Positions 5,332 through 62,950 of a stretch of DNA of 64,000 nucleotides are shown here, one piece after another. The stretch is from NCBI GenBank assembly GCA_963931065.1, contig OZ006970.1, positions 293,498 through 357,497 on the forward strand. Reading direction: 5' to 3'. The stretch is from an uncultured Bacilli bacterium. GTDB taxonomy: Bacteria; Bacillota_I; Bacilli_A; RF39; UBA660. The position numbers and the translations under genes were made by a program. Every line of letters starts with the position of its first letter. Positions within the stretch are counted from its first letter, which is position 1. The notes beneath the pieces are model-generated. The model ran no database searches, was not told where the DNA came from, and saw only the letters and a program-made list of their open reading frames with translations.

Positions 5332-6072
5332 CTATAAAATATTATTAAGTAAATTTCTAAATCTCATTTTTTTACTAATATCACCACTAGAATCAATAAA
5401 CTCTACACTATAACTTTTATTATCAAAAGTAATTCCTCTTTTCTTTAATTGTCTAATAAGTTCCCAACTAACACCTAAAGAACCATCAAAAAACTTAACT
5501 TCTCCTATTATATTTTTAATGTTATTTTTAATTAAAGGATAATGTGTACATCCTAAAACAACATTATCTATATCTTTATATTTATTAAGTTTATTAACCA
5601 AATATTGATTTATCTTATCTTCATTACCTTCTTCTATAAGTTCAGCAAGTCCCTTACAAGGAAGTAGAATTGTTTTATGGTTATTATATTTATTATATAA
5701 AGCTAAAAATTTCTCACTCTTAATTGTCCCTTCTGTAGCCATAACTAAAGTCTTACCTTCTCTATTATAATCATATACCATTTTATAAGCAGGCTCTATT
5801 GCAATAAATAAAATATCAGGATATTCAATTCTTAATCTTTTAACACATATTGCAGAAGCAGTATTACAGGCAATAACTATAGTAATACATCCCATATTTA
5901 AAAGATACTCTACTATTTTCTTAACAATACTATAAACTTCAATATCACTCTTATCTCCATATGGATTATTAACTGAATCAGAATAATATATAAATTTAGC
6001 ATTAATCCCCCGTTTTATAATCTCTCTTAAAACACTAACACCACCAACTCCTGAATCAATAACACCTATCAT
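5332..6072 (-). CDS. murI: Glutamate racemase.
   Basis: The N-terminus MIGVIDSGVGG and conserved segments (CNTAS, the GCTHYP cysteine region) are diagnostic of MurI. Confidence 0.9.
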   Translation of the reverse strand: MIGVIDSGVGGVSVLREIIKRGINAKFIYYSDSVNNPYGDKSDIEVYSIVKKIVEYLLNMGCITIVIACNTASAICVKRLRIEYPDILFIAIEPAYKMVYDYNREGKTLVMATEGTIKSEKFLALYNKYNNHKTILLPCKGLAELIEEGNEDKINQYLVNKLNKYKDIDNVVLGCTHYPLIKNNIKNIIGEVKFFDGSLGVSWELIRQLKKRGITFDNKSYSVEFIDSSGDISKKMRFRNLLNNIL

Positions 6073-6812
6073 ATATCATCCTCCAAAGTAGTCTTAGCAA
6101 GATAAAGTCCACAGGCTTTCGCAGTCGCCCCATTCTTACCTCTTTCTTTACTATCAAGTATCATCTTAACTTCATAAGGCTCTATTTTACCTGTTCCAAC
6201 TTTAAGTAATGCACCTACCATATTTCTAACCTGATATCTTAAAAAACCACTACCTACAAACTTAATATCTAAAATATCTTTTTTTCTAATAATAGATGCT
6301 TGATATATAGTTCTAACACAATTTTCTTTAACATTATTCTCAGTAACAAATGCTCTAAAGTCATGTTCACCTTCAAAATATTGTATTGCTTTTCTCATTT
6401 TACTAACATTAAGTAAATATCCATGTTGATAAACATAGTTTCTCATTAAAGGATTATATTCTCCCATATTTATATAATAATGATATTCTTTACTTAAAAC
6501 ATGATATCTAGAAAAGTAATCACAAGAAACTTCAACAACTGAGTTTATATGTATCTCATCACTCAAATAACTATTCAATGCTCTTTTTAATTTATAAGGA
6601 GTTATAGAAACATCTAAATCTAAATGTGCAACTTGATCTAATGCGTGTACCCCTTTATCAGTCCTAGATACTGCAACTACATTTACTTTAGTACTATTAT
6701 TAATTTTATAAAGGGCATTCTCTAACTCTTCTTGTATTGTCCTATACCCTTCCTGTTTCTGATATCCTTTAAAATTACTCCCATCATAACTAAATCTAAT
6801 TAAAAATCTCAT
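6069..6812 (-). CDS. truA: tRNA pseudouridine(38-40) synthase.
   Basis: The catalytic motif VSRTDKGVHA and the overall TruA architecture. It overlaps murI by 4 nt. Confidence 0.9.
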   Translation of the reverse strand: MRFLIRFSYDGSNFKGYQKQEGYRTIQEELENALYKINNSTKVNVVAVSRTDKGVHALDQVAHLDLDVSITPYKLKRALNSYLSDEIHINSVVEVSCDYFSRYHVLSKEYHYYINMGEYNPLMRNYVYQHGYLLNVSKMRKAIQYFEGEHDFRAFVTENNVKENCVRTIYQASIIRKKDILDIKFVGSGFLRYQVRNMVGALLKVGTGKIEPYEVKMILDSKERGKNGATAKACGLYLAKTTLEDDI

Positions 6813-51337: not shown

Positions 51338-52465
51338 TTATAATTCTCTTCCAACAAATACATTATATATCTCATTATATCTATAACTTAGCTTTGCATA
51401 AGTTGAATCTTGAACTAAAATTCCCATATCTACCAAATTATCTATAATGTTAGATACTGTATTCCTTGACACTCCTGATTCCTCCACTACTTCTTTCTTA
51501 GTAAAAACTACTTGTTTCATAATTACTGGCATTATTCTATATACAGCAGTACTATTTAATTCACTTATTCTTTCCATATCATTAATATAAATTTGTTTTA
51601 TTCTATTTATTTTTGCAATATAATTATTACATTGATCAATAATACATTGTAAGAAAAATTTTATAAAACCTAACATATTTCCTTTTCTACTCTCATTTAA
51701 ATATCTATAATAACTAGGTTTATATAATTCTATTATTTCAGATAAAAACAAAATAGGTTCATCTTCAGTAAGTATAGCCAACTGAATTGGAATTAATGCT
51801 CTACCTAATCTTCCATTACCATCACGATAAGCATGTATAGTTTCAAACTGAGAATGAGATATAGCCATATTAATAAATATAGGATCAATATAGGCATCAT
51901 TCATATATTGAAATAAATTATCTAATAATATAGGAACTTCTTCTGGTATAGGTGGAACAAATATAGCTTCATCAATAGTACATCCCTTAGGTCCCACCCA
52001 ATTTTGAACATCTCTAATCTTACCAGGCTCTTTTTCATTACCTCTAACACTATCTAATAAAATTTTATGAATAGTATTTACAAATTTAATATCAATTTTT
52101 TCTTGTTTTAAATAATCTTTTGCATACTCAATAACTTTTTTCAAATTTTGAATTTCTAAATTATCATCAGTTTTTGGCATATATTTCAAATAATACATTT
52201 CATCTTGAGAAATCTGCGTACCCTCAATTTGTGTAGACTTTAAACTTTCGCTCAATATGACTGAATCAAGAAAAAATTTTGAATCAAATTGACTATTTTT
52301 TAAATTTGATTTATATTCGCCGTATCTTTCATTAGCTTCTGAAATCAAATTTAGTAACTCTTTATCAATATTATATTTTATTGGTAACATATCAACTTTA
52401 ATTGGTTTCATAATAAGCCTCATTCCTTCCACTTCATTTAAGTCATACATAGCCATGAATAACAT
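51338..52465 (-). CDS. fic: Fic/DOC-family protein (AMPylase-type) with a C-terminal winged HTH.
   Basis: The HAYRDGNGRLGRAL Fic motif (HxFx(D/E)GNGRxxR) and a C-terminal wHTH-like region (VSRNTVSNIIDNLVDMGIL). Confidence 0.85.
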   Translation of the reverse strand: MLFMAMYDLNEVEGMRLIMKPIKVDMLPIKYNIDKELLNLISEANERYGEYKSNLKNSQFDSKFFLDSVILSESLKSTQIEGTQISQDEMYYLKYMPKTDDNLEIQNLKKVIEYAKDYLKQEKIDIKFVNTIHKILLDSVRGNEKEPGKIRDVQNWVGPKGCTIDEAIFVPPIPEEVPILLDNLFQYMNDAYIDPIFINMAISHSQFETIHAYRDGNGRLGRALIPIQLAILTEDEPILFLSEIIELYKPSYYRYLNESRKGNMLGFIKFFLQCIIDQCNNYIAKINRIKQIYINDMERISELNSTAVYRIMPVIMKQVVFTKKEVVEESGVSRNTVSNIIDNLVDMGILVQDSTYAKLSYRYNEIYNVFVGREL

Positions 52466-52600: not shown

Positions 52601-52722
52601 TTTTTTACATTTTTCAGCATAAAGATGCTAAATAGTATTAAATCATTGTAAATGTCAATAACTTTTTGGACAAAAATGTCAATTTCAAAGTTGGACACTT
52701 TTATAATTAAGAGGGAGGAAAA

Positions 52723-53484
52723 TTACTCCCTCTTAAAATTATCTAGTTGTTCAATTTTATTCTTAATACGATATGAATTTCCTTTTATATTTATAACATG
52801 AGAATGATGTAATAATCTATCTAATATAGCATTTGCTAATATATTATCGCTAAATACTTCTCCCCATTCACTAAAAACCATATTGGTTGTTATTATTGTA
52901 GATCTTTTCTCATATCTTTTTGCTATTAATTGGAATAATAGATTAGCTCCTTGTTTATCTACCGGCAAATATCCAATTTCATCTATTATTAATAATTCAT
53001 ATCTACAAAAATGCTTTATTCTTGCTTCTAGTTTATTTTCAAAATGTGCTTTATTTAATTGTGTTATTAAATCATGACAACTTATAAAATATACCGAATA
53101 TCTTTTCTTTGCTGCTGTTATACCTAATGATATAGCTAGGTGTGTTTTACCAACACCTGAACTACCTACAAATAGTATATTTTCATGTTTTTCTAAAAAT
53201 CTCAATGTATTTAAATCTTCTATTTTTTCTTTATCTATTGATGGTTGATAATCAAAATCGAAATCTTTTAATTCTTTTTCATAAGGAAATGCTGATACTT
53301 TTATTTGTATTTTTGATGCTCTTTCATTTCTATATTCTATTTCCTTATTTGTTAATTCTAAAAATGCTTTTTGAAATGGTATTTTTTTACTTGTTATTTC
53401 CTCTAAATAATTGGGTAAATAACTTCTCATCTTTTCTAGCTTTAATATTTCTAAATTATTTAATATGTTATTATATTCATTCAT
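52723..53484 (-). CDS. istB: IS21-family helper ATPase IstB.
   Basis: An AAA+ P-loop GSSGVGKTHLA, a Walker B LLIIDEIGY and a DnaC-like fold. Confidence 0.85.
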   Translation of the reverse strand: MNEYNNILNNLEILKLEKMRSYLPNYLEEITSKKIPFQKAFLELTNKEIEYRNERASKIQIKVSAFPYEKELKDFDFDYQPSIDKEKIEDLNTLRFLEKHENILFVGSSGVGKTHLAISLGITAAKKRYSVYFISCHDLITQLNKAHFENKLEARIKHFCRYELLIIDEIGYLPVDKQGANLLFQLIAKRYEKRSTIITTNMVFSEWGEVFSDNILANAILDRLLHHSHVINIKGNSYRIKNKIEQLDNFKRE

Positions 53485-54709
53485 CTATTTTCACTCCTAA
53501 CAATATATCTTTTTTCTTTAATTCTATTATTTCTTGTATTTCTTCATCTGTTTTATTTCTATATGCTTCACTTTTCATTATTTCTTTTAAATCACTTTCA
53601 TGATAATTTAAATACTTATCACTTATCTCATGTTGGCAAACAAAATCTGTGATGTTATAATATATATTGATTCTGGAATCCATTTCTGATATAGTGACTT
53701 GTTTTCCTATCAGATATGTTGGAACTGAGTATTTTTTACCTTTATACGTTACCATAGATTCTTTTGATACTTTATAAGTTTTTTCGGGCTCATAATAGTT
53801 GATTAATCTATCCCATAACGGTAAAGGATTTAAATACTCTTTTTCTTTTTCATGAATTTTACTCGGAACTATATTTATTCCTTGAACTACTTCATTATTT
53901 ATATCTTCGTTTATTTCTTTTACTATTTCATCCAAATCTTCCCAAGTCTCGAATTCTTCATTATATGGTCTTAATCTTTCCATTATTCTAGCGAGTGTTT
54001 CTACTTTTCCTTTTGTTTTTGGCCTATATCCTACACAAGCGAGAGGAGTAAATCCAGCATCATTACTAAAGCTTTCAAATCTTTTATTAAATACTACTTT
54101 TGTAGTTGTAGTTCTTGCTTTATCTACTACTGTTTTCATATTATCAAACAATATTTCTTTAGGGCTACCATTAAAATAACCAAACGCACTAACCATACAT
54201 TTAAATAAAGTATTTTGATTTCTATCACTTGTAAGTTTAATGTATTTATATCTTGAATATCCCAAAATCATTAGAAATATATTTATTTCAAATACTTCGC
54301 CATATTTATTTACTAATCTCATAGACTCTTTCCAATCAACTTGAGCTTGTAATCCAGGCACTGTTTCAAATCTTATTGTTGCCTTTTTTATTTGTTCATT
54401 TTTATGTTCCTTTATATATTTCCTTACTATACCATATCCTCCAGTATATCCTTGCTTTTTAATGAATTTATAAACATTCATTCCTTTACTTCTGTATTTA
54501 TCTACTTTAGTATCAATTATTTCCTTATAAGGGTCTAGTTTACTAGTTCTAGTTGTTCTTTTTTTAGGTTTTGGATTTTTTAGTCTTTCTTCTCGATTAT
54601 ATATCGTTTGCCTAGAACATCCCATAATTCTTGCCATTTCACTTTTATTAATATTATCACCTCCAATTCTTATAATTTCATTTCTTACATCTTTTCTCAT
54701 TAAAATCAA
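53477..54709 (-). CDS. istA: IS21-family transposase IstA.
   Basis: An N-terminal HTH, then a DDE integrase core. It overlaps istB by 8 nt. Confidence 0.85.
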   Translation of the reverse strand: MILMRKDVRNEIIRIGGDNINKSEMARIMGCSRQTIYNREERLKNPKPKKRTTRTSKLDPYKEIIDTKVDKYRSKGMNVYKFIKKQGYTGGYGIVRKYIKEHKNEQIKKATIRFETVPGLQAQVDWKESMRLVNKYGEVFEINIFLMILGYSRYKYIKLTSDRNQNTLFKCMVSAFGYFNGSPKEILFDNMKTVVDKARTTTTKVVFNKRFESFSNDAGFTPLACVGYRPKTKGKVETLARIMERLRPYNEEFETWEDLDEIVKEINEDINNEVVQGINIVPSKIHEKEKEYLNPLPLWDRLINYYEPEKTYKVSKESMVTYKGKKYSVPTYLIGKQVTISEMDSRINIYYNITDFVCQHEISDKYLNYHESDLKEIMKSEAYRNKTDEEIQEIIELKKKDILLGVKIDE

Positions 54710-55033
54710 CTCCTTACTATCTTTGGAAAAGATAGTTTAATTGTATCAATTAATGAAAAAGAATTGGTACAAACTGTCCAATTTCTAGATTGACATTTTT
54801 GTCCAATTCCATATTAACATTTACAATCATTTCACAAAATCATTGCTTTAAGTTTGCTATTTTTAGATTTTTAATACATCAAGCTCATGTTTTTCTATAA
54901 TCTATTGCCATTTGATTATTTACAAATAATATTCAATTTAAATGTATTAAATATAATAAATTATATCAATTTATATTTCTTAGATTAAAATACTTTTTCA
55001 AACTCTTAAAACATATAAAAACGAACTATTACT

Positions 55034-55058
55034 AGTTCGAATAGATATCAATGTGGTG
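55034..55058. repeat. att-like repeat copy R1 (AGTTCGAATAGATATCAATGTGGTG), part of a 95-bp repeat unit (55033-55127). It is related to the sequence abutting the ssrA 3' end.
   Basis: On the minus strand it reads CACCACATTGATATCTATTCGAACT. Compare the ssrA 3' end plus flank, CTCCACCATTGGCGAATCTGTTCGAACTATTCGAACT. Confidence 0.5.
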
Positions 55059-55259
55059 CCGTTGAGGAAGTTATCTACAACTTATCGGTAATTTAATACA
55101 AGAAGCAATCACTATTTAAACTATAACATACACTCTTGAAATTTTATCAAAAACATTTCTTGTTCTCTTGTTTTATAAATATATTTATTATATAATTCTA
55201 ACAGGAACATTTGATGTGAGTGTCGTCCTCCAATCTTGAGAAAGAAAGGAGGGATAGAA

Positions 55260-55352
55260 ATGAAGAAAAGAACTTTTATAATAAAAGTCCTTCGTCTTAT
55301 TGCTATCATTTTATTACTCCTTACCTTATTGGTAATAGCAATAAAAATATGA
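55260..55352 (+). CDS. Candidate type I toxin-like small hydrophobic peptide (30 aa, MKKRTFIIKVLRLIAIILLLLTLLVIAIKI).
   Basis: A strong RBS AAGGAGGGATAGAAATG. An upstream CCTCC can pair with that RBS. A 7-bp stem GACACTC...GAGTGTC and a T-run lie just downstream. The peptide has a single TM helix. The overlapping 80-aa antisense ORF in the track is probably spurious. Confidence 0.35.
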   Translation: MKKRTFIIKVLRLIAIILLLLTLLVIAIKI

Positions 55353-55506
55353 CACTCTCTCATCTCTGATTGAGTGTCAACCCTAAATTTTTAGAGGCGA
55401 CATTCACTTGCAGAATTAAATGTTCCTCTTTTTTATTTTATGCAAGTTTTCTTGCTTACATACTAATAATATCATAAAAGTAAACTTTTTTCAAGTCATC
55501 TATACA

Positions 55507-55531
55507 TTAACTCATTAGTTCGAGTAAATAT
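55507..55531. repeat. att-like repeat copy R2 (AGTTCGAGTAAATATCAATCTGGTG), part of a 98-bp repeat unit (55506-55603) that is about 70% identical to 55033-55127.
   Basis: Direct comparison. The shared stretch TCTACAACTT...CAATCACTA continues beyond the core. Confidence 0.5.
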
Positions 55532-55699
55532 CAATCTGGTGCGAGTGTCGTAGTAGTCTACAACTTTCTCTAGAGACGATTGGTATAAAAATCAATCACT
55601 AAATATAGTTTACCATCAAAAGAAAAAAGTAGCAATAATTTTGTGCTACTTATTAACCATTTTTAATTTAATTTCACTTGTTTAATTTTTAATCAAAAA

Positions 55700-56659
55700 C
55701 TACAAATAATGTTTATCCAAACTTCTTACTATTTTTTTTACATTTTTATCATTAATTGAAGTGGTAGTGGTTTTTATATCTGGATCATCATCCCAATCAT
55801 ATACACCATCCAATTCATGACTTTCTCTAAAAGTTAATGTTAATAAATCAATGGATAATGATTTATTATATTTACCAAAAGCAATACTAAACAACTTTTC
55901 ATATCCTTGAATTAATAACTTATAATTTGCCATTGCTAGATAACCACCACTAGATGAACTAATTTGTAAATTTCTATCTTGATGATACATAATAGCAATT
56001 CTTTTAGAAATAACGTTATATAGTTCCAGTAATTCTTTTTTAATTGATTTAAGATTAATGATGGTTGATATATCAGTTTCAAGTAAATATTTATTTATAT
56101 CTTTACATTGTCTAGGCCATTCTTGATTTTCAATTAATTTATCTATATGACTTTCCCATATATTTTGAATCATTTGCGCTGCTATATATTTTCCTATTAA
56201 TAAATCATTTTCATCTATATCAATAGTATCATCTATTTTTCTTTTAGGTACATCTGCCAAATATTCTTCAATAACTTTTCTAATTTTAAATGTTTGTCCT
56301 TTAAAATCATCAAACTGACTCATACCACCATCCATAAAATATGTGTTAATAACACTTCTATCATAATTACTTAATTTATAATTTGCTTGAATAATATAAT
56401 CATTACTGCTTTCATCTTCTATCATATTCATATGTGGTTTATTAAACCAATCTCTTTCATTTTTTCTTTCAAAAAAGCGATCGAATAGTTTCTTGTTTTC
56501 GTATAGTGCGTCTTCAACTTCCATTTTTGATTCAAAAAAGTATAAAAAGCTAATAAATTCAGAAGTAGAAAAACTGGGTTCATAACCATTATTAGTTTTA
56601 TACATCATATATTCTACTATTAAATCATCTACTGTTAATTTGTGTTCTAAATTTACCAT
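55700..56659 (-). CDS. Hypothetical protein, island cargo.
   Basis: 319-aa ORF followed by a terminator hairpin (AAGTAGCA...TGCTACTT plus T-run on the minus strand) at about 55625-55660. Confidence 0.4.
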   Translation of the reverse strand: MVNLEHKLTVDDLIVEYMMYKTNNGYEPSFSTSEFISFLYFFESKMEVEDALYENKKLFDRFFERKNERDWFNKPHMNMIEDESSNDYIIQANYKLSNYDRSVINTYFMDGGMSQFDDFKGQTFKIRKVIEEYLADVPKRKIDDTIDIDENDLLIGKYIAAQMIQNIWESHIDKLIENQEWPRQCKDINKYLLETDISTIINLKSIKKELLELYNVISKRIAIMYHQDRNLQISSSSGGYLAMANYKLLIQGYEKLFSIAFGKYNKSLSIDLLTLTFRESHELDGVYDWDDDPDIKTTTTSINDKNVKKIVRSLDKHYL

Positions 56660-56728
56660 AAATCCTCCTTTTCTTCTAATTATTATACCATAATTTTTCT
56701 TTATTTTATCATTAATTTTATATGTTTA

Positions 56729-58117
56729 TTAAATTTCTAAATCAAAATCATCTTTATCTTTATTATCGTGTTCTTTACTGAATACATAAGTATCTTTTAA
56801 ATCCTCAAATGTTTCATCACTAATAATACCTTTTGAGTATAAATCAATAGATACATCTCTATATTTATCTCGTACTTTTCCTCTATCAAAGAGTTTATCA
56901 CTAATAAGATTAATAACACTTAAAAACTTATCTTTCCAAAATTCTAGCTTTTCTCTTAATGAATAATTTTCTTCTTCTAATTCTTTAATTTCTTTAGTTT
57001 TACTTTTAAGGTTTTTAGTTAGAGTTTCTACTCTTAAAGATAAAGCATTATTATTTTCAGTTAGTACCTTAATCTTCTCACGATTTTCTTTTAATTCTTC
57101 ATGTACATTATTTAACGTAACAGACAAAGTTTGTATATTTTTATATTCATTATTTGTTTTATCAACTTTATCTATGAAAGTAATAAGTTTATCTTTATCT
57201 TCTTGCTTTAAAACATATTTATCTTTATTGATTATAGTAGTCTTTAAATTATCAACTATATTCTTAACTTCTTTAGAATTATTATCTAACTCTAAAGACT
57301 TTTTATTTACTATTTCTAATTTTGTTTGATTTTTGGATAGTTCTTGTTTCATAGTTTGATAATTAGTCATATCAGAAACATGAATATCACGATTTCTTCC
57401 TTTTAATTTTTTCTTTAAAGAGTTATTTAGATTATATTCTTTATTAAATGATTCAATACAAAGTATTCTCATTTTATCCTGTAATTTTGTTAAAGACTCT
57501 TTTGTAAACACATCAGACTTTCCAACTTGTTTAGACATACCATTTTTGTTTTTATATTTAATTGGGACTCCTACAATATGAAGATGTGGACTTGTTTCGT
57601 CATAATGAATAATAGCACTAGCTATTTTAAAGTTAGGTAACATTGTTTCTAAATCATCAACTTGGTCTTTATAAACAGAAGTCATACGTTTTTTAAAATC
57701 TAAATCTTTGGTATCCCAATATTTCTTATCTCCAAGTTCAATAATAATCTCACAAGCTAAATCATTTTTTTCATTATTACTGATATTAGTAAAGTAGTCA
57801 TTTATCTTTCTATTTTCTCTAGTTTGTTTAGCATTATATTCAAGTCGTGCTTCTTCAAATTCTTCTTTATATAAATTTCTAACATCATCATACAAAGAAG
57901 AAGTACCTTTTATGATTTCGATATTGTCTTGATCGTTATCATACTTTCTATAATTATGCTTATCTACTCGAGATAAACCTCGTGCATTTTGTATTGCATT
58001 ATTACTCATAGACGTAGAGCCACTTTTATTTGTTTTAGCACTTTTTCTAACATTATTCTTTTTATTTTTATCACTACCCAAATGTAGTGAATAAGCAAGT
58101 TCAGACATATAAATCAC
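56729..58117 (-). CDS. MobV-family (Mob/Pre) relaxase for plasmid or ICE mobilization.
   Basis: The HxDE..PHxH motif (IIHYDETSPHLHIVGVP) and a long C-terminal coiled coil. Confidence 0.7.
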   Translation of the reverse strand: MIYMSELAYSLHLGSDKNKKNNVRKSAKTNKSGSTSMSNNAIQNARGLSRVDKHNYRKYDNDQDNIEIIKGTSSLYDDVRNLYKEEFEEARLEYNAKQTRENRKINDYFTNISNNEKNDLACEIIIELGDKKYWDTKDLDFKKRMTSVYKDQVDDLETMLPNFKIASAIIHYDETSPHLHIVGVPIKYKNKNGMSKQVGKSDVFTKESLTKLQDKMRILCIESFNKEYNLNNSLKKKLKGRNRDIHVSDMTNYQTMKQELSKNQTKLEIVNKKSLELDNNSKEVKNIVDNLKTTIINKDKYVLKQEDKDKLITFIDKVDKTNNEYKNIQTLSVTLNNVHEELKENREKIKVLTENNNALSLRVETLTKNLKSKTKEIKELEEENYSLREKLEFWKDKFLSVINLISDKLFDRGKVRDKYRDVSIDLYSKGIISDETFEDLKDTYVFSKEHDNKDKDDFDLEI

Positions 58118-58329
58118 GCTCCTTTCTTTAAAAATTATTTTGTTATGACAAAATATTTAACCCCCTAGGCATTTTGACGCATGGCATCAAAATAACCTCG
58201 TGGTCTAGGGATTCCCTAGAACCCATTTCTTTATTTCATATTGTTTTAAAACTTCATAATAAAACAAAATTACATAAAGCATTGATGAAAATATTTTATT
58301 GTCATAAAACATTTTCTTTGTAAAAATCT

Positions 58330-60285
<1,956 letters not shown>

Positions 60286-60499
60286 TTATCATCTCCCTTT
60301 TCAAAAAAAGAGGAGTCAAAACCACTAGCATACAACTAATATTTTTAACTCCTCTAATAAACTATTTAAGTTTTTATATAAATCTAATTTGTAAGTTTTA
60401 ACCATAGAGTACCTACTTTCTAATAAAAGACGGATACTGCTTGTCATTTATTGACGAATATAATACAACTTTTTATTTGATTTGTCTAGTATATGAGTA

Positions 60500-60784
60500 T
60501 TAGTTAATGCTTTTGATATAGTTTTCAAGTTCTGATAGTTTAATCTTTTTGCTCAAATTATTGATATAGATTTCATTTGAATAATTAATAGCAAGAAATA
60601 GATTATCTTTAATGATTATTCTATGTGGCTCAATGTATGATAAATTTGTCTTATCAATCTTTCTAATACTACCATTTATAATAGTTGGAGTAGTATTACA
60701 AAAATCACAAATAATTTCTAATCTCTTTCTTAAAGATTCTTCCATATCAATTTCAATTTTCTTTACATTAATCATAGACACCAA
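60500..60784 (-). CDS. Hypothetical small protein, the first gene after the ssrA terminator.
   Basis: 94-aa ORF. I recognise no family. Confidence 0.35.
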   Translation of the reverse strand: MVSMINVKKIEIDMEESLRKRLEIICDFCNTTPTIINGSIRKIDKTNLSYIEPHRIIIKDNLFLAINYSNEIYINNLSKKIKLSELENYIKSIN

Positions 60785-60811
60785 CCTTTCTTTCGATTAG
60801 TTTTTTATATA

Positions 60812-60838
60812 AAACGAAAAAACCAATCATTTCTGATT
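60812..60838 (-). terminator. Rho-independent terminator of ssrA.
   Basis: On the minus strand, CAATCAGAAATGATTG is followed by GTTTTTT. Confidence 0.6.
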
Positions 60839-60873
60839 GATTCTTTATATCAAAAGTTCGAATAGTTCGAACA

Positions 60874-61264
60874 GATTCGCCAATGGTGGAGATGAGGAGA
60901 TTCGAACTCCTGTCCAAAAATAAAGCTACATAAACTTCTACAAGTTTAGATGATTAAGAAACTTCAAACTATTTTCTAGTAACCATCAACTAATAAAATA
61001 GTTCTAGTCTAAAAAATTCCGTCATAGCCTAGACAAACTACAACTATATCCTGCTAAAATAAACCATCTTAACTTAACACAGGAAATTAAGAGAAGACAG
61101 TGCATTTACCTTTTACTAGGCGAAAGCTAACTCAGTATTTTTATTAAATAAGTTAGCAAATGCTGTTTTAATACTGTTTCCAGCTATTTTAATTTAGTTT
61201 GTAACGTAAACAACTCGACTTGCCATTTATGCTCTATTATTCCTGTCGAAACCAAAGCATCCCC
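60874..61264 (-). ncRNA. ssrA: Transfer-messenger RNA (tmRNA, SsrA).
   Basis: The 5' end GGGGATGCTTTGGTTTCGACAGG and the 3' end GGACAGGAGTTCGAATCTCCTCATCTCCACCA match the tRNA-Ala-like tmRNA ends. An internal in-frame tag ORF ends ...NLFNKNTELAFA before a stop. It sits directly downstream of smpB. Confidence 0.85.
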
Positions 61265-61323: not shown

Positions 61324-61761
61324 CTATTTATATTTATTAAATTTAGCAGCTTCCCTCTTTAAATCTCTTTCTTTAATACTTTCTCTTTTATCATAGTTTT
61401 TCTTACCCTTACATAACCCAAGTTCTATCTTCGCTTTACCACGTACAAAGTATAGTTTTAAAGGAATAAGAGTATAGCCCTCTAATTTAAGTTTATTATC
61501 TAACTTTTTAATTTCACTTTTATGAAGTAATAACTTTCTACTTCTTGTCTCTTCATGATTAAAGATATTACCTTCCTTATAATGGTCTATAAACATATTA
61601 ACAAGATAAACTTCTCCACTTCTTATAATAGCATAACTATCTTTAATAGAAGCCTTGCCAAGCCTTATAGACTTAATCTCTGTTCCTTTTAAAACAATAC
61701 CTGCTTCATATGTATCTTCAATAAAATAATCAAACTTAGCACGTCTATTAATAATCTCCAT
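61324..61761 (-). CDS. smpB: SsrA-binding protein.
   Basis: Conserved SmpB sequence (NRRAKFDYFIEDTYEAGIVLKGTEIKSIR...). The start is at MEII, which follows a GGAGTG RBS. Confidence 0.9.
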   Translation of the reverse strand: MEIINRRAKFDYFIEDTYEAGIVLKGTEIKSIRLGKASIKDSYAIIRSGEVYLVNMFIDHYKEGNIFNHEETRSRKLLLHKSEIKKLDNKLKLEGYTLIPLKLYFVRGKAKIELGLCKGKKNYDKRESIKERDLKREAAKFNKYK

Positions 61762-61765
61762 AATA

Positions 61766-62950
61766 TCACTCCAAACTAGGCATTTCAATTCTATTATCAA
61801 GAGATAACACTATATTTTTATATGTCTCATAATAATTTTTATAACCAGGTAACAAATCATCATTTAAACTAGTATAAGGATAAACAACAAAGCCTCTCTT
61901 TCTTCCATAAGTAGAATATGTATATAAAAGTTCTGCTTTAGGATTTTTTAACTCTATTGTACTGACACCATTTTCCACAGTTTTGTGGATATCTATACTT
62001 GCCATTAATCCTGTAAGACGTTCTACTCCTTCTTGATCAGATATAAAATTACCTAATGAATATATTACCATAGTATTATTAATAAAGGCAATGGGTTCTA
62101 CTACATGAGGATGACTTCCAATAATAATATCAACACCAAGACTAGATAAGTAGTTAGCAATCTCTTGTTGTGAGGCACTAATACTAGTAGAATATTCTGT
62201 TCCCCAGTGCATCGCTACAATCACAACATCTACATTATCGCGAACTTTTTCAATATCAGCTTTCGCTTTCTCGGGACTATAAACATTATTTAAATATTCC
62301 TTACCACTAGGTGTCTCTAAACCATTAGTCCAAGTTGTATAAGAAAAGAATGAATAAGTAATACCATTAATTTCTTTAATAACCATCTTATCCCTATCAT
62401 CAAAAGATAAATAACTCCCAGCCGTATAAATATCATCTTTACTATTCCAATAGTTTAAAGAGTTAATTACACCTTGTTCTCCTTTATCCATAGTATGATT
62501 TGTTGCAAGACTAACTAAGTTAAATCCTGCATCAATAAAGGCATCTCCTACCTCATAAGGAGAGTTAAATCTAGGATAATTAGATAATCCTAACTCAGTA
62601 CCACCTAATATTGTCTCTTGATTATAATACTTTAAATCATAATCTTGAATAAGAGGTTTAATCTCACTTAACATAGGCTTAAAATCATAACCACTACCAG
62701 TATAAGCATCAGTATATATAGTACTATGGATTAAAGCATCTCCTACCATCACTAAAGACGCATCCATTTCTTCTTTCTTACTAACTACTTCTTCTTCCTT
62801 TTTTTGTTCTTTTACATCATCTTTTTTAACATTATCAGTACTAAGACGATAATAAAATCCTAAACTAATACCAAATAAAGTACCAATAAAAACAATAATA
62901 ACAAAACGTCCTAATACTGTTAATTTTCTCCTCTTCTTTATTTTACTCAT
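61766..62950 (-). CDS. CapA/PgsA-family metallophosphatase-like membrane protein, linked to poly-gamma-glutamate or capsule synthesis.
   Basis: An N-terminal TM helix, then the CapA-family motifs (GDALIHS..., NLVSLATNHTMDKG, AMHWGTEYS, GSHPHVVEP). Confidence 0.7.
   Translation of the reverse strand: MSKIKKRRKLTVLGRFVIIVFIGTLFGISLGFYYRLSTDNVKKDDVKEQKKEEEVVSKKEEMDASLVMVGDALIHSTIYTDAYTGSGYDFKPMLSEIKPLIQDYDLKYYNQETILGGTELGLSNYPRFNSPYEVGDAFIDAGFNLVSLATNHTMDKGEQGVINSLNYWNSKDDIYTAGSYLSFDDRDKMVIKEINGITYSFFSYTTWTNGLETPSGKEYLNNVYSPEKAKADIEKVRDNVDVVIVAMHWGTEYSTSISASQQEIANYLSSLGVDIIIGSHPHVVEPIAFINNTMVIYSLGNFISDQEGVERLTGLMASIDIHKTVENGVSTIELKNPKAELLYTYSTYGRKRGFVVYPYTSLNDDLLPGYKNYYETYKNIVLSLDNRIEMPSLE

What the first reader, a model, noticed from the sequence alone, without database searches (positions are those of the whole stretch)
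55200..55440. Candidate type I toxin: a 30-aa hydrophobic peptide whose RBS is sequestered by a hairpin, unannotated in the ORF track
A plus-strand ORF at 55260-55352 encodes MKKRTFIIKVLRLIAIILLLLTLLVIAIKI, a single TM helix with a K/R-rich N-terminus. It follows an exceptionally strong SD (AAGGAGGG).

An upstream CCTCC (about 55228) can pair with that SD. The 5' region sequence GAGTGTC (55219-55225) is complementary to GACACTC immediately after the stop, and a GACACTC...GAGTGTC hairpin plus T-run follows. 5'/3' pairing and RBS occlusion of this kind are typical of Fst/TxpA-like type I toxin mRNAs.

The peptide lies within the small repeat-delimited remnant islet next to the ssrA island. The track's 80-aa antisense ORF (55121-55363) overlaps it and may mark the antisense RNA region rather than a protein.
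Basis: inference. Interest (0 to 1): 0.5.

Follow-up and report, generated by a model that had tools for sequence, protein, structure and literature searches.

The report
New type I toxin–antitoxin-like RNA module
A 30-residue membrane-type peptide gene, with a tightly self-locked mRNA and a predicted convergent antisense RNA, is conserved in at least 24 uncultured gut Bacillota species and looks like an undescribed type I toxin–antitoxin family that usually sits next to the 3' end of tRNA or tmRNA genes.

Summary
ORF 55260-55352 (+) encodes MKKRTFIIKVLRLIAIILLLLTLLVIAIKI behind SD AAGGAGGG (55246-53), with anti-SD CCTCC at 55227-31.

The ~235-nt transcript (55203-~55439) folds far better than shuffles (z = -8.7). 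The SD sits in a local hairpin, and a 21-23-bp helix joins the 5' end to the terminator region.

The module recurs in 24 GTDB species and several metagenome contigs, often in more than one copy. The long-range helices are 93-97% paired, with compensatory changes. The ORF is indel-free, whereas the UTRs are not.

A minus-strand promoter (TTGnnA, 17 nt, TGnTATTAT) is conserved in 25/25 copies. It predicts a ~119-nt antisense RNA (55459->55341) that overlaps the toxin 3' UTR and last codons, as in Gram-positive txpA/ratA- and bsrG/SR4-type systems.

Two reader details need correction. The 5' GAGTGTC pairs with the terminator arm in the best fold, not with the stop-proximal GACACTC. The GACACTC hairpin is the antisense terminator.

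The peptide matches no Pfam or NCBIfam toxin model, and the RNAs match no Rfam family. Toxicity and transcription are untested.

Ten of 24 species carry the module 88-176 nt from a convergent tRNA or tmRNA 3' end.

Verdict: a new family of a known kind.

The parts
55168..55196 (+). Predicted toxin promoter: -35 TTGTTT (55168-73), 17-nt spacer, -10 TATAAT (55191-96). The transcription start is expected near 55203.
   Evidence: Read directly from the sequence. The consensus scan did not list it because the -35 matches only 3 of 6 positions. Across 32 copies the -10 is exactly TATAAT in 17 and the -35 starts TTG in 22. The spacer is 17 nt in 25 copies, and the -10 ends 6-8 nt before the 5' helix.
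55203..55439 (+). Predicted toxin mRNA, about 235 nt, running from the 5' helix to the terminator T-run.
   Evidence: Fold energy -78.5 kcal/mol, z = -8.7. The nhmmer family profile matches 55203-55435 at E = 9e-68 and finds no other copy in the window.
55203..55225 (+). 5' arm of the long-distance 5'-3' interaction: AGGAACAUUU at 55203-12 and GUGAGUGUCG at 55216-25.
   Evidence: MFE structure. RNAalifold consensus and pair counts give helices 93-97% paired, with compensatory pairs 20:240, 26:229, 35:220 and 36:219.
55227..55231 (+). Anti-SD CCUCC, which pairs with the SD core GGAGG (55248-52).
   Evidence: Paired in the MFE. P(SD unpaired) is 0.01 in the full-length RNA and 0.02 in the 5' fragment. 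The same partner is predicted in 12 of 19 homologs. The hairpin persists in every enforced conformer.
55246..55253 (+). Shine-Dalgarno AAGGAGGG, 6 nt upstream of the ATG.
   Evidence: GGAGG or a close variant is conserved at this position in the family alignment.
55260..55352 (+). 30-codon ORF plus TGA encoding MKKRTFIIKVLRLIAIILLLLTLLVIAIKI. Net charge is +6, and residues 13-28 have GRAVY 3.5.
   Evidence: Coding signal: 1 of 90 ORF columns has a gap, against 17 of 64 in the 5' UTR and 35 of 87 in the 3' UTR. The third codon position is the most variable. The ORF is 30 aa in 15 of 19 aligned copies. Near-identical peptides P0001-P0006 are in the protein collection.
55350..55379 (.). Hairpin UGACACUC..GAGUGUCA overlapping the stop codon. 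On the minus strand it is the terminator stem of the antisense RNA.
   Evidence: -13.2 kcal/mol when folded alone. Conserved, with compensatory changes at pairs 171:191, 175:187 and 176:186 and in the minus-strand alignment.
55340..55349 (-). U-tract of the antisense terminator (TATTTTTATT on the minus strand). It is the complement of the C-terminal I-K-I codons.
   Evidence: ATTTTTTTATT or ATATTTTTATT is conserved in the 25-copy alignment.
55393..55439 (+). Toxin terminator: hairpin AGAGGCGACAUU..AAUGUUCCUCU (55393-55429) plus T-run. Both of its arms (55398-55407 and 55418-55427) are also the 3' partners of the long-distance helix.
   Evidence: The local hairpin conformer is -60.3 kcal/mol against -78.0 for the long-distance fold. 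Covariation of the 5' arm with the 5' UTR cannot be explained by the local hairpin.
55466..55494 (-). Predicted antisense (antitoxin) promoter: -35 TTGAAA (55494-89), 17-nt spacer, TG-extended -10 TATTAT (55471-66).
   Evidence: Best promoter-like site in the region, 10 of 12 matches with TG. Across 25 copies the -35 is TTGnnA-type (TTGnnA in 23 of 25 copies, with TTGTAC and TTTACA in the other two) in all, the spacer is 17 nt in 20, and TGn precedes the -10 in 24, while the spacer sequence varies.
55341..55459 (-). Predicted antisense RNA of about 119 nt. It has a 5' stem-loop GCAAG-AAAA-CUUGC (55442-55), an A-rich linker, a hairpin complementary to the toxin terminator, and a terminator hairpin plus U-tract. 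It overlaps the toxin mRNA by about 97 nt (55341-55437).
   Evidence: Fold energy -31.7 kcal/mol, z = -3.7. A 5' stem-loop is predicted in 22 of 25 copies, with variants GUAAG/CUUAC, AUGAAG/CUUCAU and CAAA/UUUG. RNAalifold recovers the hairpins. The ends are inferred from promoter and terminator positions, not measured.
55033..55129 (.). Left flanking repeat (D1-1): a terminator-like hairpin followed by a pseudo tRNA 3' end, TGGTGCCGTTGAGGAAGTTATCTACAACTT.
   Evidence: Direct repeat families D1 and D5. Terminator-like site at 55039-55022 on the minus strand. Related sequences occur in L001 and L010. ARAGORN and Rfam call no tRNA here.
55516..55616 (.). Right flanking repeat (D1-2): the pseudo 3' end TGGTGCGAGTGTCGTAGTAGTCTACAACTT. 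It lies where other species have an intact tRNA or tmRNA 3' end.
   Evidence: The same element is found in L026 (2115-2145) and L034 (3149-3178). It shares only TGGTGCGAGTG with the real tRNA-Leu(tag) of L026.

Best explanation
The locus is a compact (about 340 bp) type I toxin-antitoxin-like module belonging to a previously undescribed family.

Shown by sequence and comparison:
- A sigma-70-type promoter would drive a ~235-nt mRNA for a 30-aa cationic, hydrophobic, membrane-type peptide.
- The mRNA is doubly locked. The strong SD is buried in a local hairpin with an upstream CCUCC. This hairpin can form as soon as the 5' UTR is made, which would block co-transcriptional translation.
- The extreme 5' end also pairs with both arms of the terminator region in a 21-23-bp long-distance helix that closes the whole molecule.
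- A conserved convergent promoter 30 nt beyond the toxin terminator predicts a ~119-nt non-coding antisense RNA. It is perfectly complementary to the last ~97 nt of the toxin mRNA (3' UTR, stop codon and last 3-4 codons).
- That RNA ends at the hairpin overlapping the stop codon. The U-tract of this terminator is encoded by the complement of the C-terminal IKI/IKK codons.

Inferred by analogy with bsrG/SR4 and txpA/ratA (PMC8309996, PMC8594479):
- The antisense RNA is the antitoxin.
- It duplexes with the toxin 3' region, displaces the toxin's own 5' end from the long-distance helix, and marks the mRNA for RNase III-type decay.
- It does not act by masking the SD, because the SD stays sequestered whether or not the 3' region is occupied.
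- Peptide made when the antisense RNA runs out would insert in the membrane and arrest growth.

The module is multi-copy in its lineage. It typically sits 88-176 nt from the 3' end of a convergent tRNA or tmRNA gene, or between att-like pseudo 3' ends as in this window. The most likely reason is that it is the deletion-resistant leftover, or the edge cargo, of elements that integrate at those genes.
For: ORF, SD and anti-SD are present.

mRNA structure:
- The fold has z = -8.7, with the SD hairpin and the 5'-3' helix.
- In 19 homologs z is -4.3 to -10, and each has 11-31 MFE pairs between the first 35 and last 55 nt.
- P(SD unpaired) is <= 0.1 in 13 of 19. The exceptions mostly have a mutated SD.
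- On the MAFFT alignment 90.3% of cells are paired, against 35-43% when partners are slid.
- The covariation score is 0.272 against 0.02-0.09.
- There are 54 double-change cells against 3-15, and 0 of 500 shuffles reach the observed value.
- The long-range helices are 93-97% paired, with 6 compensatory pairs.
- Divergent paralogs keep the helix with different sequence. L031b has GUUGGGUGCUUGCC paired with GGUGAGUACUCAAC.

Coding signal:
- The ORF is indel-free, the third codon position is the most variable, and length is conserved at 30 aa.
- TGA is swapped for TAG at the same codon in one homolog.

Antisense RNA:
- The promoter hexamers, 17-nt spacing and TG are conserved in 24-25 of 25 copies, with a variable spacer.
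- The 5' stem-loop lies outside the toxin mRNA and covaries.
- A terminator with a U-tract follows.

Family behaviour:
- The family is found in 24 GTDB species, with tandem or multiple copies.
- The 80-aa antisense ORF is not conserved.
- The organisation matches the Gram-positive type I pattern stated in PMC8594479.
Against: - There is no expression data, so both transcripts and all four RNA ends are predictions.
- Toxicity and neutralisation are untested.
- The peptide matches no Pfam or NCBIfam type I toxin model at E <= 10, and the RNAs match no Rfam family. The assignment therefore rests on architecture, not homology.
- The toxin -35 is weak (TTGTTT).
- Hairpins 2 and 3 of the antisense RNA are the same DNA as toxin mRNA structures, so their covariation does not show which strand is constrained.
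- The SD stays locked in every modelled state, so how the toxin would ever be translated is unexplained.
- Several copies are visibly decayed (L018, L023, L027, L033, L034; SD mutated in L035). This shows the module is dispensable in some genomes.
Confidence: 0.7

Rival explanations
1. It is a small, non-toxic membrane protein gene under cis-antisense and structural control. The gene and both RNAs would be real, but the peptide would have a physiological role, for example modulating a membrane protein, rather than being a toxin. The antisense RNA would then be an ordinary regulator.
For: All of the evidence is architectural. Nothing here measures toxicity. The module persists next to housekeeping genes without an accompanying island in several species. 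There is no homology to any proven toxin.
Against: Several features are typical of type I toxin loci and unusual for ordinary small protein genes (PMC8594479). They are multi-copy and tandem arrangement with divergent paralogs, frequent decay of individual copies, extreme translational locking (P(SD unpaired) near 0.01), a fully closed mRNA, and a dedicated 3'-overlapping antisense RNA.
Confidence: 0.17
2. The conserved unit is mainly a non-coding nucleic-acid element tied to recombination at tRNA/tmRNA 3' ends, that is, an att-site cassette or structured RNA. On this view the 30-codon ORF is incidental.
For: The module lies 88-176 nt from a tRNA or tmRNA 3' end in 10 of 24 species. It is bracketed by att-like direct repeats in the window, L026, L001 and L031. 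Part of the ORF (ATCATTTTATTACTCC) is conserved at nucleotide level beyond what the protein requires, and can pair with the SD/AUG region.
Against: The ORF shows coding-type evolution: no indels against many in both UTRs, the third position most variable, length kept at 30 codons, and a stop-to-stop swap. A strong SD and start codon are conserved at fixed spacing. Divergent paralogs keep a hydrophobic ORF of similar size while the sequence changes. Helices spanning 200 nt make sense for RNA but not for a DNA site.
Confidence: 0.05
3. One reading: the 5' GAGUGUC pairs with GACACUC at the stop codon, and the GACACUC..GAGUGUC hairpin plus T-run terminates the toxin mRNA.
For: Enforcing the 5' GAGUGUC:GACACUC pairing costs only 4.3 kcal/mol relative to the MFE (-73.7 against -78.0) and keeps the terminal helix and the SD hairpin. 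The four segments covary together in the divergent paralog L031b, so a switch between the two pairings is possible. These segments are the 5' GAGUGUC, the stop-proximal GACACUC, the hairpin 3' arm and the terminator 5' arm.
Against: The MFE, the centroid and the RNAalifold consensus all pair the 5' segment with the terminator 5' arm. On the + strand the hairpin is followed by AACCCTAAATTTTT, a 5-T run 9 nt away. A proper hairpin plus TTTTTTATTTT lies at 55393-55439 and is conserved. On the minus strand the GACACTC hairpin is directly followed by a U-tract.
Confidence: 0.08

Closest known systems
bsrG/SR4, bsrE/SR5, bsrH/as-bsrH, txpA/ratA and yonT/SR6 of Bacillus subtilis (Gram-positive type I TA systems with 3'-overlapping antisense RNAs)
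   Same: - A small hydrophobic peptide.
- A convergent antisense RNA on the 3' side that overlaps the 3' UTR and the end of the ORF. This is the organisation stated in PMC8594479.
- An SD sequestered within the toxin mRNA.
- An expected duplex-dependent decay. For SR4/bsrG this is RNase III cleavage plus an effect on the SD (PMC8309996).
- Location on or beside mobile or integrated DNA.
   Different: - There is no detectable sequence similarity of the peptide to any Pfam or NCBIfam model, and no Rfam hit for the RNA.
- The charges are N-terminal (MKKR..K..R), with only a 1-2-residue basic C-terminus.
- The mRNA is closed by a long 5'-3' helix whose 3' partner is the terminator itself.
- The antisense terminator's U-tract is encoded by the last codons of the toxin.
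- The hosts are uncultured low-GC gut Bacillota.
par (fst/RNA II) of Enterococcus faecalis pAD1 and the Fst/Ldr superfamily
   Same: Convergent toxin and antitoxin RNAs, a 5' stem-loop that hides the SD of the toxin mRNA, and a peptide of about 30 aa with a single helix.
   Different: - The Fst motif APxxxG and the acidic or charged C-terminal tail (PMC8309996) are absent. The peptide has no Pro or Gly.
- Fst-type RNAs interact through repeats outside the overlap (PMC8594479). Here the predicted interaction is the ~97-nt overlap itself.
- A search for extra complementarity between the antisense RNA and the toxin 5' region was inconclusive.
hok/sok (plasmid R1) and aapA1/IsoA1 (Helicobacter pylori)
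   Same: The full-length toxin mRNA is kept inert by a long-distance interaction between its 5' and 3' ends together with SD sequestration. Alternative, mutually exclusive helices are possible (PMC6733600, PMC5416894 and PMC8594479, listed). AapA1 is also 30 aa.
   Different: In those systems the antisense RNA targets the 5' or translation-initiation region, and activation is by 3' trimming. Here the antisense RNA covers the 3' end, and no processing step is known. There is no HOK_GEF match. The phylum also differs.

Membership tests
Type I toxin-antitoxin system (general definition) | Small (under 60 aa) hydrophobic peptide ORF with its own SD and start codon | tested here: met
   A 30-aa ORF with GRAVY 1.9 and net charge +6. 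Coding-type conservation is seen across 19 or more copies.
Type I toxin-antitoxin system (general definition) | Antisense RNA gene that base-pairs with the toxin mRNA | tested here: met
   This is a sequence-level prediction only. There is a conserved TG-extended promoter, a covarying 5' stem-loop and an intrinsic terminator on the minus strand, giving a 97-nt perfect overlap. Transcription itself was not testable.
Type I toxin-antitoxin system (general definition) | Toxin mRNA structured so that translation is repressed (SD occluded) | tested here: met
   P(SD unpaired) is 0.01 in the window and <= 0.1 in 13 of 19 homologs. The SD hairpin persists in all enforced conformers.
Type I toxin-antitoxin system (general definition) | Peptide is toxic when over-expressed, and the RNA neutralises it | not testable with these tools
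   Requires experiments.
TxpA/RatA - BsrG/SR4-type families | [quoted passage not shown] | tested here: met
   The predicted asRNA runs 55459->55341 and the toxin mRNA spans 55203-55439. The overlap includes the stop codon and the last 3-4 codons. The definition comes from PMC8594479.
TxpA/RatA - BsrG/SR4-type families | Sequence homology of the toxin peptide or antitoxin RNA to family members | tested here: not met
   None of 18 family peptides hit any type I toxin model in Pfam-A or NCBIfam at E <= 10. There is no Rfam match at gathering score or at E <= 10. Direct alignment to TxpA/BsrG sequences was not run.
Fst/RNAII (par) family | Conserved APxxxG motif in the hydrophobic helix and a charged C-terminal tail | tested here: not met
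   The peptides contain no Pro or Gly in the helix and end in IKI or IKK. The motif is as described in PMC8309996. There is no Fst_toxin hit in Pfam.
Fst/RNAII (par) family | RNA-RNA interaction through complementary repeats outside the terminator overlap | tested here: inconclusive
   The duplex between the toxin 5' 73 nt and the antisense RNA is -32.6 kcal/mol. Shuffled antisense RNAs give -20.5 +/- 3.6, with a best shuffle of -32.7. No clear repeat pair was seen.
hok/sok and AapA/IsoA (long-distance-interaction toxin mRNAs) | 5'-3' long-distance helix locking the full-length mRNA | tested here: met
   23 long-range pairs in the window MFE, 93-97% paired across 19 sequences, with compensatory changes.
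hok/sok and AapA/IsoA (long-distance-interaction toxin mRNAs) | Antisense RNA encoded opposite the 5' UTR or translation-initiation region; toxin in the Hok/Gef or AapA families | tested here: not met
   The antisense promoter and terminator lie at the 3' end. There is no HOK_GEF or other toxin model hit.

The most novel reading that the evidence does not exclude
The module may be more than a new type I TA family. It may be the core of a miniature (~0.4-0.5 kb) integrative cassette.

Such a cassette would be bounded by att-like repeats. Each repeat carries only the last 6-11 nt of a tRNA acceptor end plus a shared ATCTACAACTT arm. The cassette would be inserted precisely at the 3' ends of different tRNA genes and of ssrA, and would accrete in tandem there.

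On this reading, a type I TA would be the sole cargo of a trans-mobilised mini-element. Alternatively, it would act as a 'gatekeeper' that persists at integration hot-spots in uncultured gut Bacillota.
Probability: 0.25. Interest if true: 0.65.

Novelty: new member of a known kind. Interest (0 to 1): 0.47.

Why it matters
**Annotation gap.** Type I toxin-antitoxin loci are almost never annotated, and the known families come from a handful of cultured Proteobacteria and Firmicutes. This locus defines a family in uncultured, low-GC gut Bacillota. Its public records are labelled 'Bacilli', 'Tenericutes', 'Mycoplasma sp.' or 'Clostridium sp. CAG:594'.

**A testable RNA design.** Both promoters, both terminators, the SD lock and a covariation-supported 5'-3' helix are all identified. 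The family is therefore ready to be turned into Rfam or T1TAdb models and to be tested by expression.

**Mechanistic points.**
- The antitoxin would compete with the toxin's own 5' end for the same 3' target.
- The antitoxin terminator is written into the toxin's last codons.

**Genome dynamics.** The strong association with tRNA and tmRNA 3' ends links type I TA modules to integration hot-spots. This may explain small 'orphan' islets and contig breaks in metagenome assemblies.

Tried and rejected
- **Genetic code 4 (TGA = Trp), which would extend the ORF.** Rejected. Long ORFs end in TGA and lack internal TGA, and one homolog has TAG at the same codon.
- **The 80-aa minus-strand ORF (55121-55363) as a gene.** Rejected. 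It has no Pfam hit and is not conserved: stop-free stretches are only 24-37 aa in many homologs.
- **Known RNA families.** An Rfam gathering scan of the window and 20 loci, plus a permissive E <= 10 scan of 54950-55700, gave only tRNA, tmRNA, a T-box and chance-level hits.
- **Known protein families.** Pfam and NCBIfam scans of 18 peptides gave only chance hits.
- **A 30-aa query to the search for homologous proteins.** It was solved by padding with the in-frame upstream translation.
- **Plasmid, phage and IMG/VR searches for the module.** No match.
- **Literature search for the peptide sequence.** No paper found.
- **Exact-protein look-ups to name the source organism.** SmpB and an 848-aa ORF were not on record. 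The IS21 IstB is on many contigs, which is uninformative for naming.
- **Flanking repeats as displaced copies of this genome's own ssrA 3' end.** Rejected. They share only TGGTG and the terminator-like flank with ssrA. D1-2 matches the terminal 11 nt of a tRNA-Leu instead.
- **Upstream neighbours as island genes.** In other species they are housekeeping genes (SepF, DivIVA, YetF, HAD hydrolase, TetR, M50 peptidase), so no integrase accompanies most copies.
- **Extra antisense complementarity to the toxin 5' region (Fst-style).** Inconclusive.
- **Not used, judged unnecessary.** The metagenome-contig scan, the protein-representative search and structure prediction.
Full report
**1. What is in the sequence**

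The plus-strand ORF 55260-55352 encodes MKKRTFIIKVLRLIAIILLLLTLLVIAIKI, with a TGA stop. The other features are:
- SD AAGGAGGG at 55246-53, 6 nt before the ATG.
- CCTCC at 55227-31.
- GACACTC at 55351-57, overlapping the stop codon.
- A second GAGTGTC at 55372-78.

The window has 26% G+C. TGA is a true stop here: 12 of 53 long ORFs end in TGA, and ORFs of 776 and 848 aa lack internal TGA.

The peptide has net charge +6. All charges but one lie in the first 12 residues, and the core is very hydrophobic (GRAVY 3.5 for residues 13-28).

**2. The mRNA is far more structured than chance**

Region 55202-55440 folds at -78.5 kcal/mol, against -43.6 +/- 4.0 for dinucleotide shuffles (z = -8.7). The structure has three parts:

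(a) An SD hairpin. CCUCC pairs with GGAGG, an inner UCUU pairs with AAGA, and the AUG region is also paired.

(b) A hairpin UGACACUC..GAGUGUCA that starts at the stop codon.

(c) A long-distance helix between the two ends. The first nucleotides, AGGAACAUUU (55203-12), pair with AAAUGUUCCU (55418-27). GUGAGUGUCG (55216-25) pairs with CGACAUUCAC (55398-07).

Both 3' partners are the two arms of the intrinsic terminator hairpin (55393-55429, followed by TTTTTTATTTT).

The energies of alternative conformers are informative:

| Conformer | Energy (kcal/mol) |
|---|---|
| Long-distance fold (MFE) | -78.0 |
| Local terminator hairpin enforced | -60.3 |

The terminator must form for termination, so refolding to the long-distance state afterwards is expected. 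In every state the SD hairpin persists. It persists even when the last 97 nt are masked as if duplexed with an antisense RNA.

A promoter with a perfect -10 lies 6-7 nt upstream of the first paired base: TTGTTT, 17 nt, TATAAT at 55168-96. This is my own reading. The consensus scan missed it because the -35 scores only 3 of 6.

**3. An antisense gene on the minus strand**

The best promoter-like site in the region is on the minus strand: TTGAAA, 17 nt, TATTAT with a TG extension, at 55494-55466.

A transcript starting near 55459 would have these parts in order:
- a 5' stem-loop GCAAG-AAAA-CUUGC;
- an A-rich linker;
- the complement of the toxin terminator hairpin;
- the complement of the stop-codon hairpin, followed directly by UAUUUUUAUU.

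That is an intrinsic terminator, giving a ~119-nt RNA (55459->55341; fold z = -3.7). It overlaps the toxin mRNA by about 97 nt, including the stop and the last 3-4 codons.

The U-tract is the complement of the I-K-I codons. This may explain the conserved IKI/IKK C-terminus.

**4. The module is a conserved, multi-copy family**

A padded 45-aa query recovered six near-identical predicted peptides. Their contigs place them in different chromosomal contexts of spore-forming Bacillota.

A peptide-pattern scan of one genome per GTDB species found 24 loci. The records are labelled uncultured Bacilli, Bacillota, 'Tenericutes' or 'Mycoplasma sp.', plus Clostridium sp. CAG:594.

An nhmmer profile finds one copy in the window. 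Second copies, some in tandem, occur in L002, L017, L021, L026, L031, L032 and L024.

The second copies in L031 and L024 are divergent paralogs with different peptides: MHKKDLLIFSLILIIFLLIVLLFTFVK and MNKKDIIIFSLFIIIYSLIIIIFHLM. They keep the same RNA architecture.

Some copies are decayed by frameshifts, by loss of the 5' UTR, or by SD mutation.

**5. Comparative support for the mRNA structure**

On an unguided MAFFT alignment of 19 copies, RNAalifold recovers the long-distance helix.

Counting pairs for a stated structure gives:

| Measure | Stated structure | Control |
|---|---|---|
| Cells forming standard pairs | 90.3% | 35-43% (partners slid 1-3 columns) |
| Covariation score | 0.272 | 0.02-0.09 (partners slid 1-3 columns) |
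| Double-change cells | 54 | 3-15 (partners slid 1-3 columns) |
| Shuffles reaching the observed value | 0 of 500 | - |

- The two long-range helices are 93% and 97% paired.
- Compensatory pairs include G-C/A-U at 20:240, G-C/U-A/C-G at 26:229, and U-A/G-C/A-U at 35:220.
- The pairs between the 5' UTR and the terminator 5' arm cannot be explained by the local terminator hairpin.

Every homolog folds with z between -4.3 and -10 and shows 11-31 long-range MFE pairs.
- The SD is predicted unpaired with probability <= 0.1 in 13 of 19.
- Its partner is the 5' UTR anti-SD in 12, and an ORF-internal CUCC in 4.
- The clearest exceptions have mutated SDs (GUAGG, GGAUG).

RNAalifold also suggests that the SD/AUG region can pair with the nucleotide-invariant ORF segment ATCATTTTATTACTCC. 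That would be a second way of hiding the SD.

**6. Comparative support for coding**
- Only 1 of 90 ORF columns has a gap, against 17 of 64 in the 5' UTR and 35 of 87 in the 3' UTR.
- The third codon position carries the most variation (116 minor-allele cells against 70 and 63).
- Fifteen of 19 aligned ORFs are exactly 30 codons.
- One homolog has TAG where the others have TGA.

The 80-aa minus-strand ORF is not conserved and has no family hit.

**7. Comparative support for the antisense RNA**

In 25 aligned copies:
- the -35 is TTGnnA-type in all (TTGnnA in 23 of 25 copies, with TTGTAC and TTTACA in the other two);
- the spacer is 17 nt in 20;
- a TG precedes the -10 in 24;
- the -10 is TATTAT or a one- or two-step variant;
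- the spacer sequence varies freely, which is the pattern expected of a working promoter.

The 5' stem-loop lies beyond the toxin terminator, so it is not part of the toxin mRNA. It is predicted in 22 of 25 copies, with stem variants GCAAG/CUUGC, GUAAG/CUUAC, AUGAAG/CUUCAU and CAAA/UUUG. The other two hairpins and the U-tract are conserved, but they share DNA with toxin mRNA structures.

**8. Mechanism**

Shown:
- a locked, closed mRNA for a membrane-type peptide;
- a conserved convergent promoter-terminator unit giving a perfectly complementary 3' antisense RNA.

Inferred:
- The SD hairpin forms first and prevents co-transcriptional translation.
- After termination the 5' end captures the terminator arms. 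This closes both ends, which would also shield them from exonucleases.
- The antisense RNA has the same sequence as the toxin 5' end over the helix region. It would therefore outcompete that end and form a ~97-bp duplex.
- That duplex would trigger RNase III-type decay, as described for SR4/bsrG and RatA/txpA (PMC8309996).

The SD stays hidden regardless of the antisense RNA. The antitoxin is thus more likely to act on stability than on ribosome access. The step that would ever activate translation is unknown.

**9. Comparison with known systems**

The organisation matches the Gram-positive pattern in the T1TAdb paper: the asRNA is on the 3' side and overlaps the ORF end (PMC8594479). The long-distance lock resembles hok and aapA1 (papers listed).

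Membership in any named family fails on sequence:
- no Pfam or NCBIfam toxin model is hit;
- there is no Rfam family match;
- the Fst APxxxG motif is absent.

No paper in the library contains the peptide sequence. There is no match in plasmid, phage or IMG/VR collections. I file it as a new family of a known kind.

**10. Context**

The layout of the window is:
- ssrA at 60884-61264 on the minus strand.
- Between ssrA and the module, a ~5.3-kb mobilisable element with a large serine recombinase and a Mob_Pre relaxase.
- The module, bracketed by repeats at 55033-55129 and 55516-55616.
- To the left, an IS21-family element.

The repeats are not copies of this ssrA. They are att-like pseudo 3' ends with this layout: TGGTG, then 6-9 nt of an acceptor strand, then a shared ATCTACAACTT. 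Relatives occur in L026, L034, L001 and L010.

In other species the same position, 88-176 nt beyond the toxin terminator, holds an intact convergent gene:
- tmRNA in L013, L028 and L029;
- tRNA-Arg in L012, Gly in L014, Leu in L026 and L027, Ala in L031 and Thr in L035;
- tRNA-Leu next to the second copy in the metagenome locus L001, which is not one of the 24 species genomes.

The L012-L035 loci in this list give the 10 of 24 species. A rough estimate of my own suggests well under 1% would be expected for random intergenic sites.

Direct repeats containing the tRNA end bracket modules in L026, L001 and L031. The upstream neighbours are housekeeping genes.

The simplest reading is that the module is the surviving edge of elements that integrate at these genes. 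A more novel reading is a self-contained mini-cassette. Neither is proven.

Noticed in passing
L012-L035, L001 (module-proximal 300 nt); window 55516-55566: In 10 of 24 species the module lies 88-176 nt from the 3' end of a convergent tRNA (Arg, Gly, Leu x2, Ala, Thr) or tmRNA gene (L013, L028, L029). A further instance lies next to tRNA-Leu in the metagenome locus L001. The orientation is always the same. The window has an att-like pseudo 3' end at that position instead.
   Followed up: partly
window 55033-55129 and 55516-55616; L026 2085-2145 and 3248-3288; L034 3149-3178; L001 7874-7888 and 8262-8276: The repeats bracketing module copies have a common layout: a terminator-like flank, then TGGTG plus 6-11 nt of a tRNA acceptor end, then a shared ATCTACAACTT. 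They look like att junctions of a tRNA-targeting element, but no cognate integrase was identified.
   Followed up: partly
window 55567-60883: A ~5.3-kb integrative mobilisable element lies between ssrA and the module. It carries a 94-aa ORF, a large serine recombinase (58330-60282), a Mob_Pre relaxase (56729-58117) and a 319-aa ORF with no family. Both ends carry AAAA(T/C)CAATCA.
   Followed up: partly
window 52640-54832: An IS21-family element (IstA 53477-54709, IstB 52723-53484) with 62-nt inverted repeats that are 81% complementary. The identical IstB is listed in 716 index blocks of the protein collection (22 contigs were read), and occurs at two or more places on one 1.5-Mb ENA contig.
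   Followed up: partly
window 60846-60873; L026 2085-2112 and 3248-3275: The same terminator-like sequence, AAGTTCGAATAGTTCGAACAGATTCG, follows ssrA in the window and follows tRNA-Leu (and its pseudo-copy) in another species. The flank therefore travels independently of the RNA gene it abuts.
   Followed up: no
L031 2271-2515; L024 791-1030: Divergent paralogs sit next to canonical copies. They encode different peptides (MHKKDLLIFSLILIIFLLIVLLFTFVK and MNKKDIIIFSLFIIIYSLIIIIFHLM) but keep the same promoter, helix and antisense layout.
   Followed up: partly
L001/L002/L009 about 6037-6275; L025 1453-1645: These copies have the promoter, 5' helix and anti-SD replaced by unrelated sequence, yet keep the ORF, the 3' structures and the antisense promoter. 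They may be inactivated toxins with a retained antitoxin.
   Followed up: no
L005, L007, L008, L018 (contig ends): Several metagenome contigs end inside or just after the module. This fits a repeated sequence that breaks assemblies.
   Followed up: no
window 55340-55352: The last codons of the toxin (ATA AAA ATA TGA) are the complement of the U-tract and stem base of the antisense terminator. This is a dual-use sequence, and it may fix the IKI/IKK C-terminus.
   Followed up: yes
window 60884-61264 (-): The tmRNA carries a long tag peptide, GNSIKTAFANLFNKNTELAFA. SmpB is adjacent (61324-61800). A Fic-domain protein is encoded at 51338-52465.
   Followed up: no
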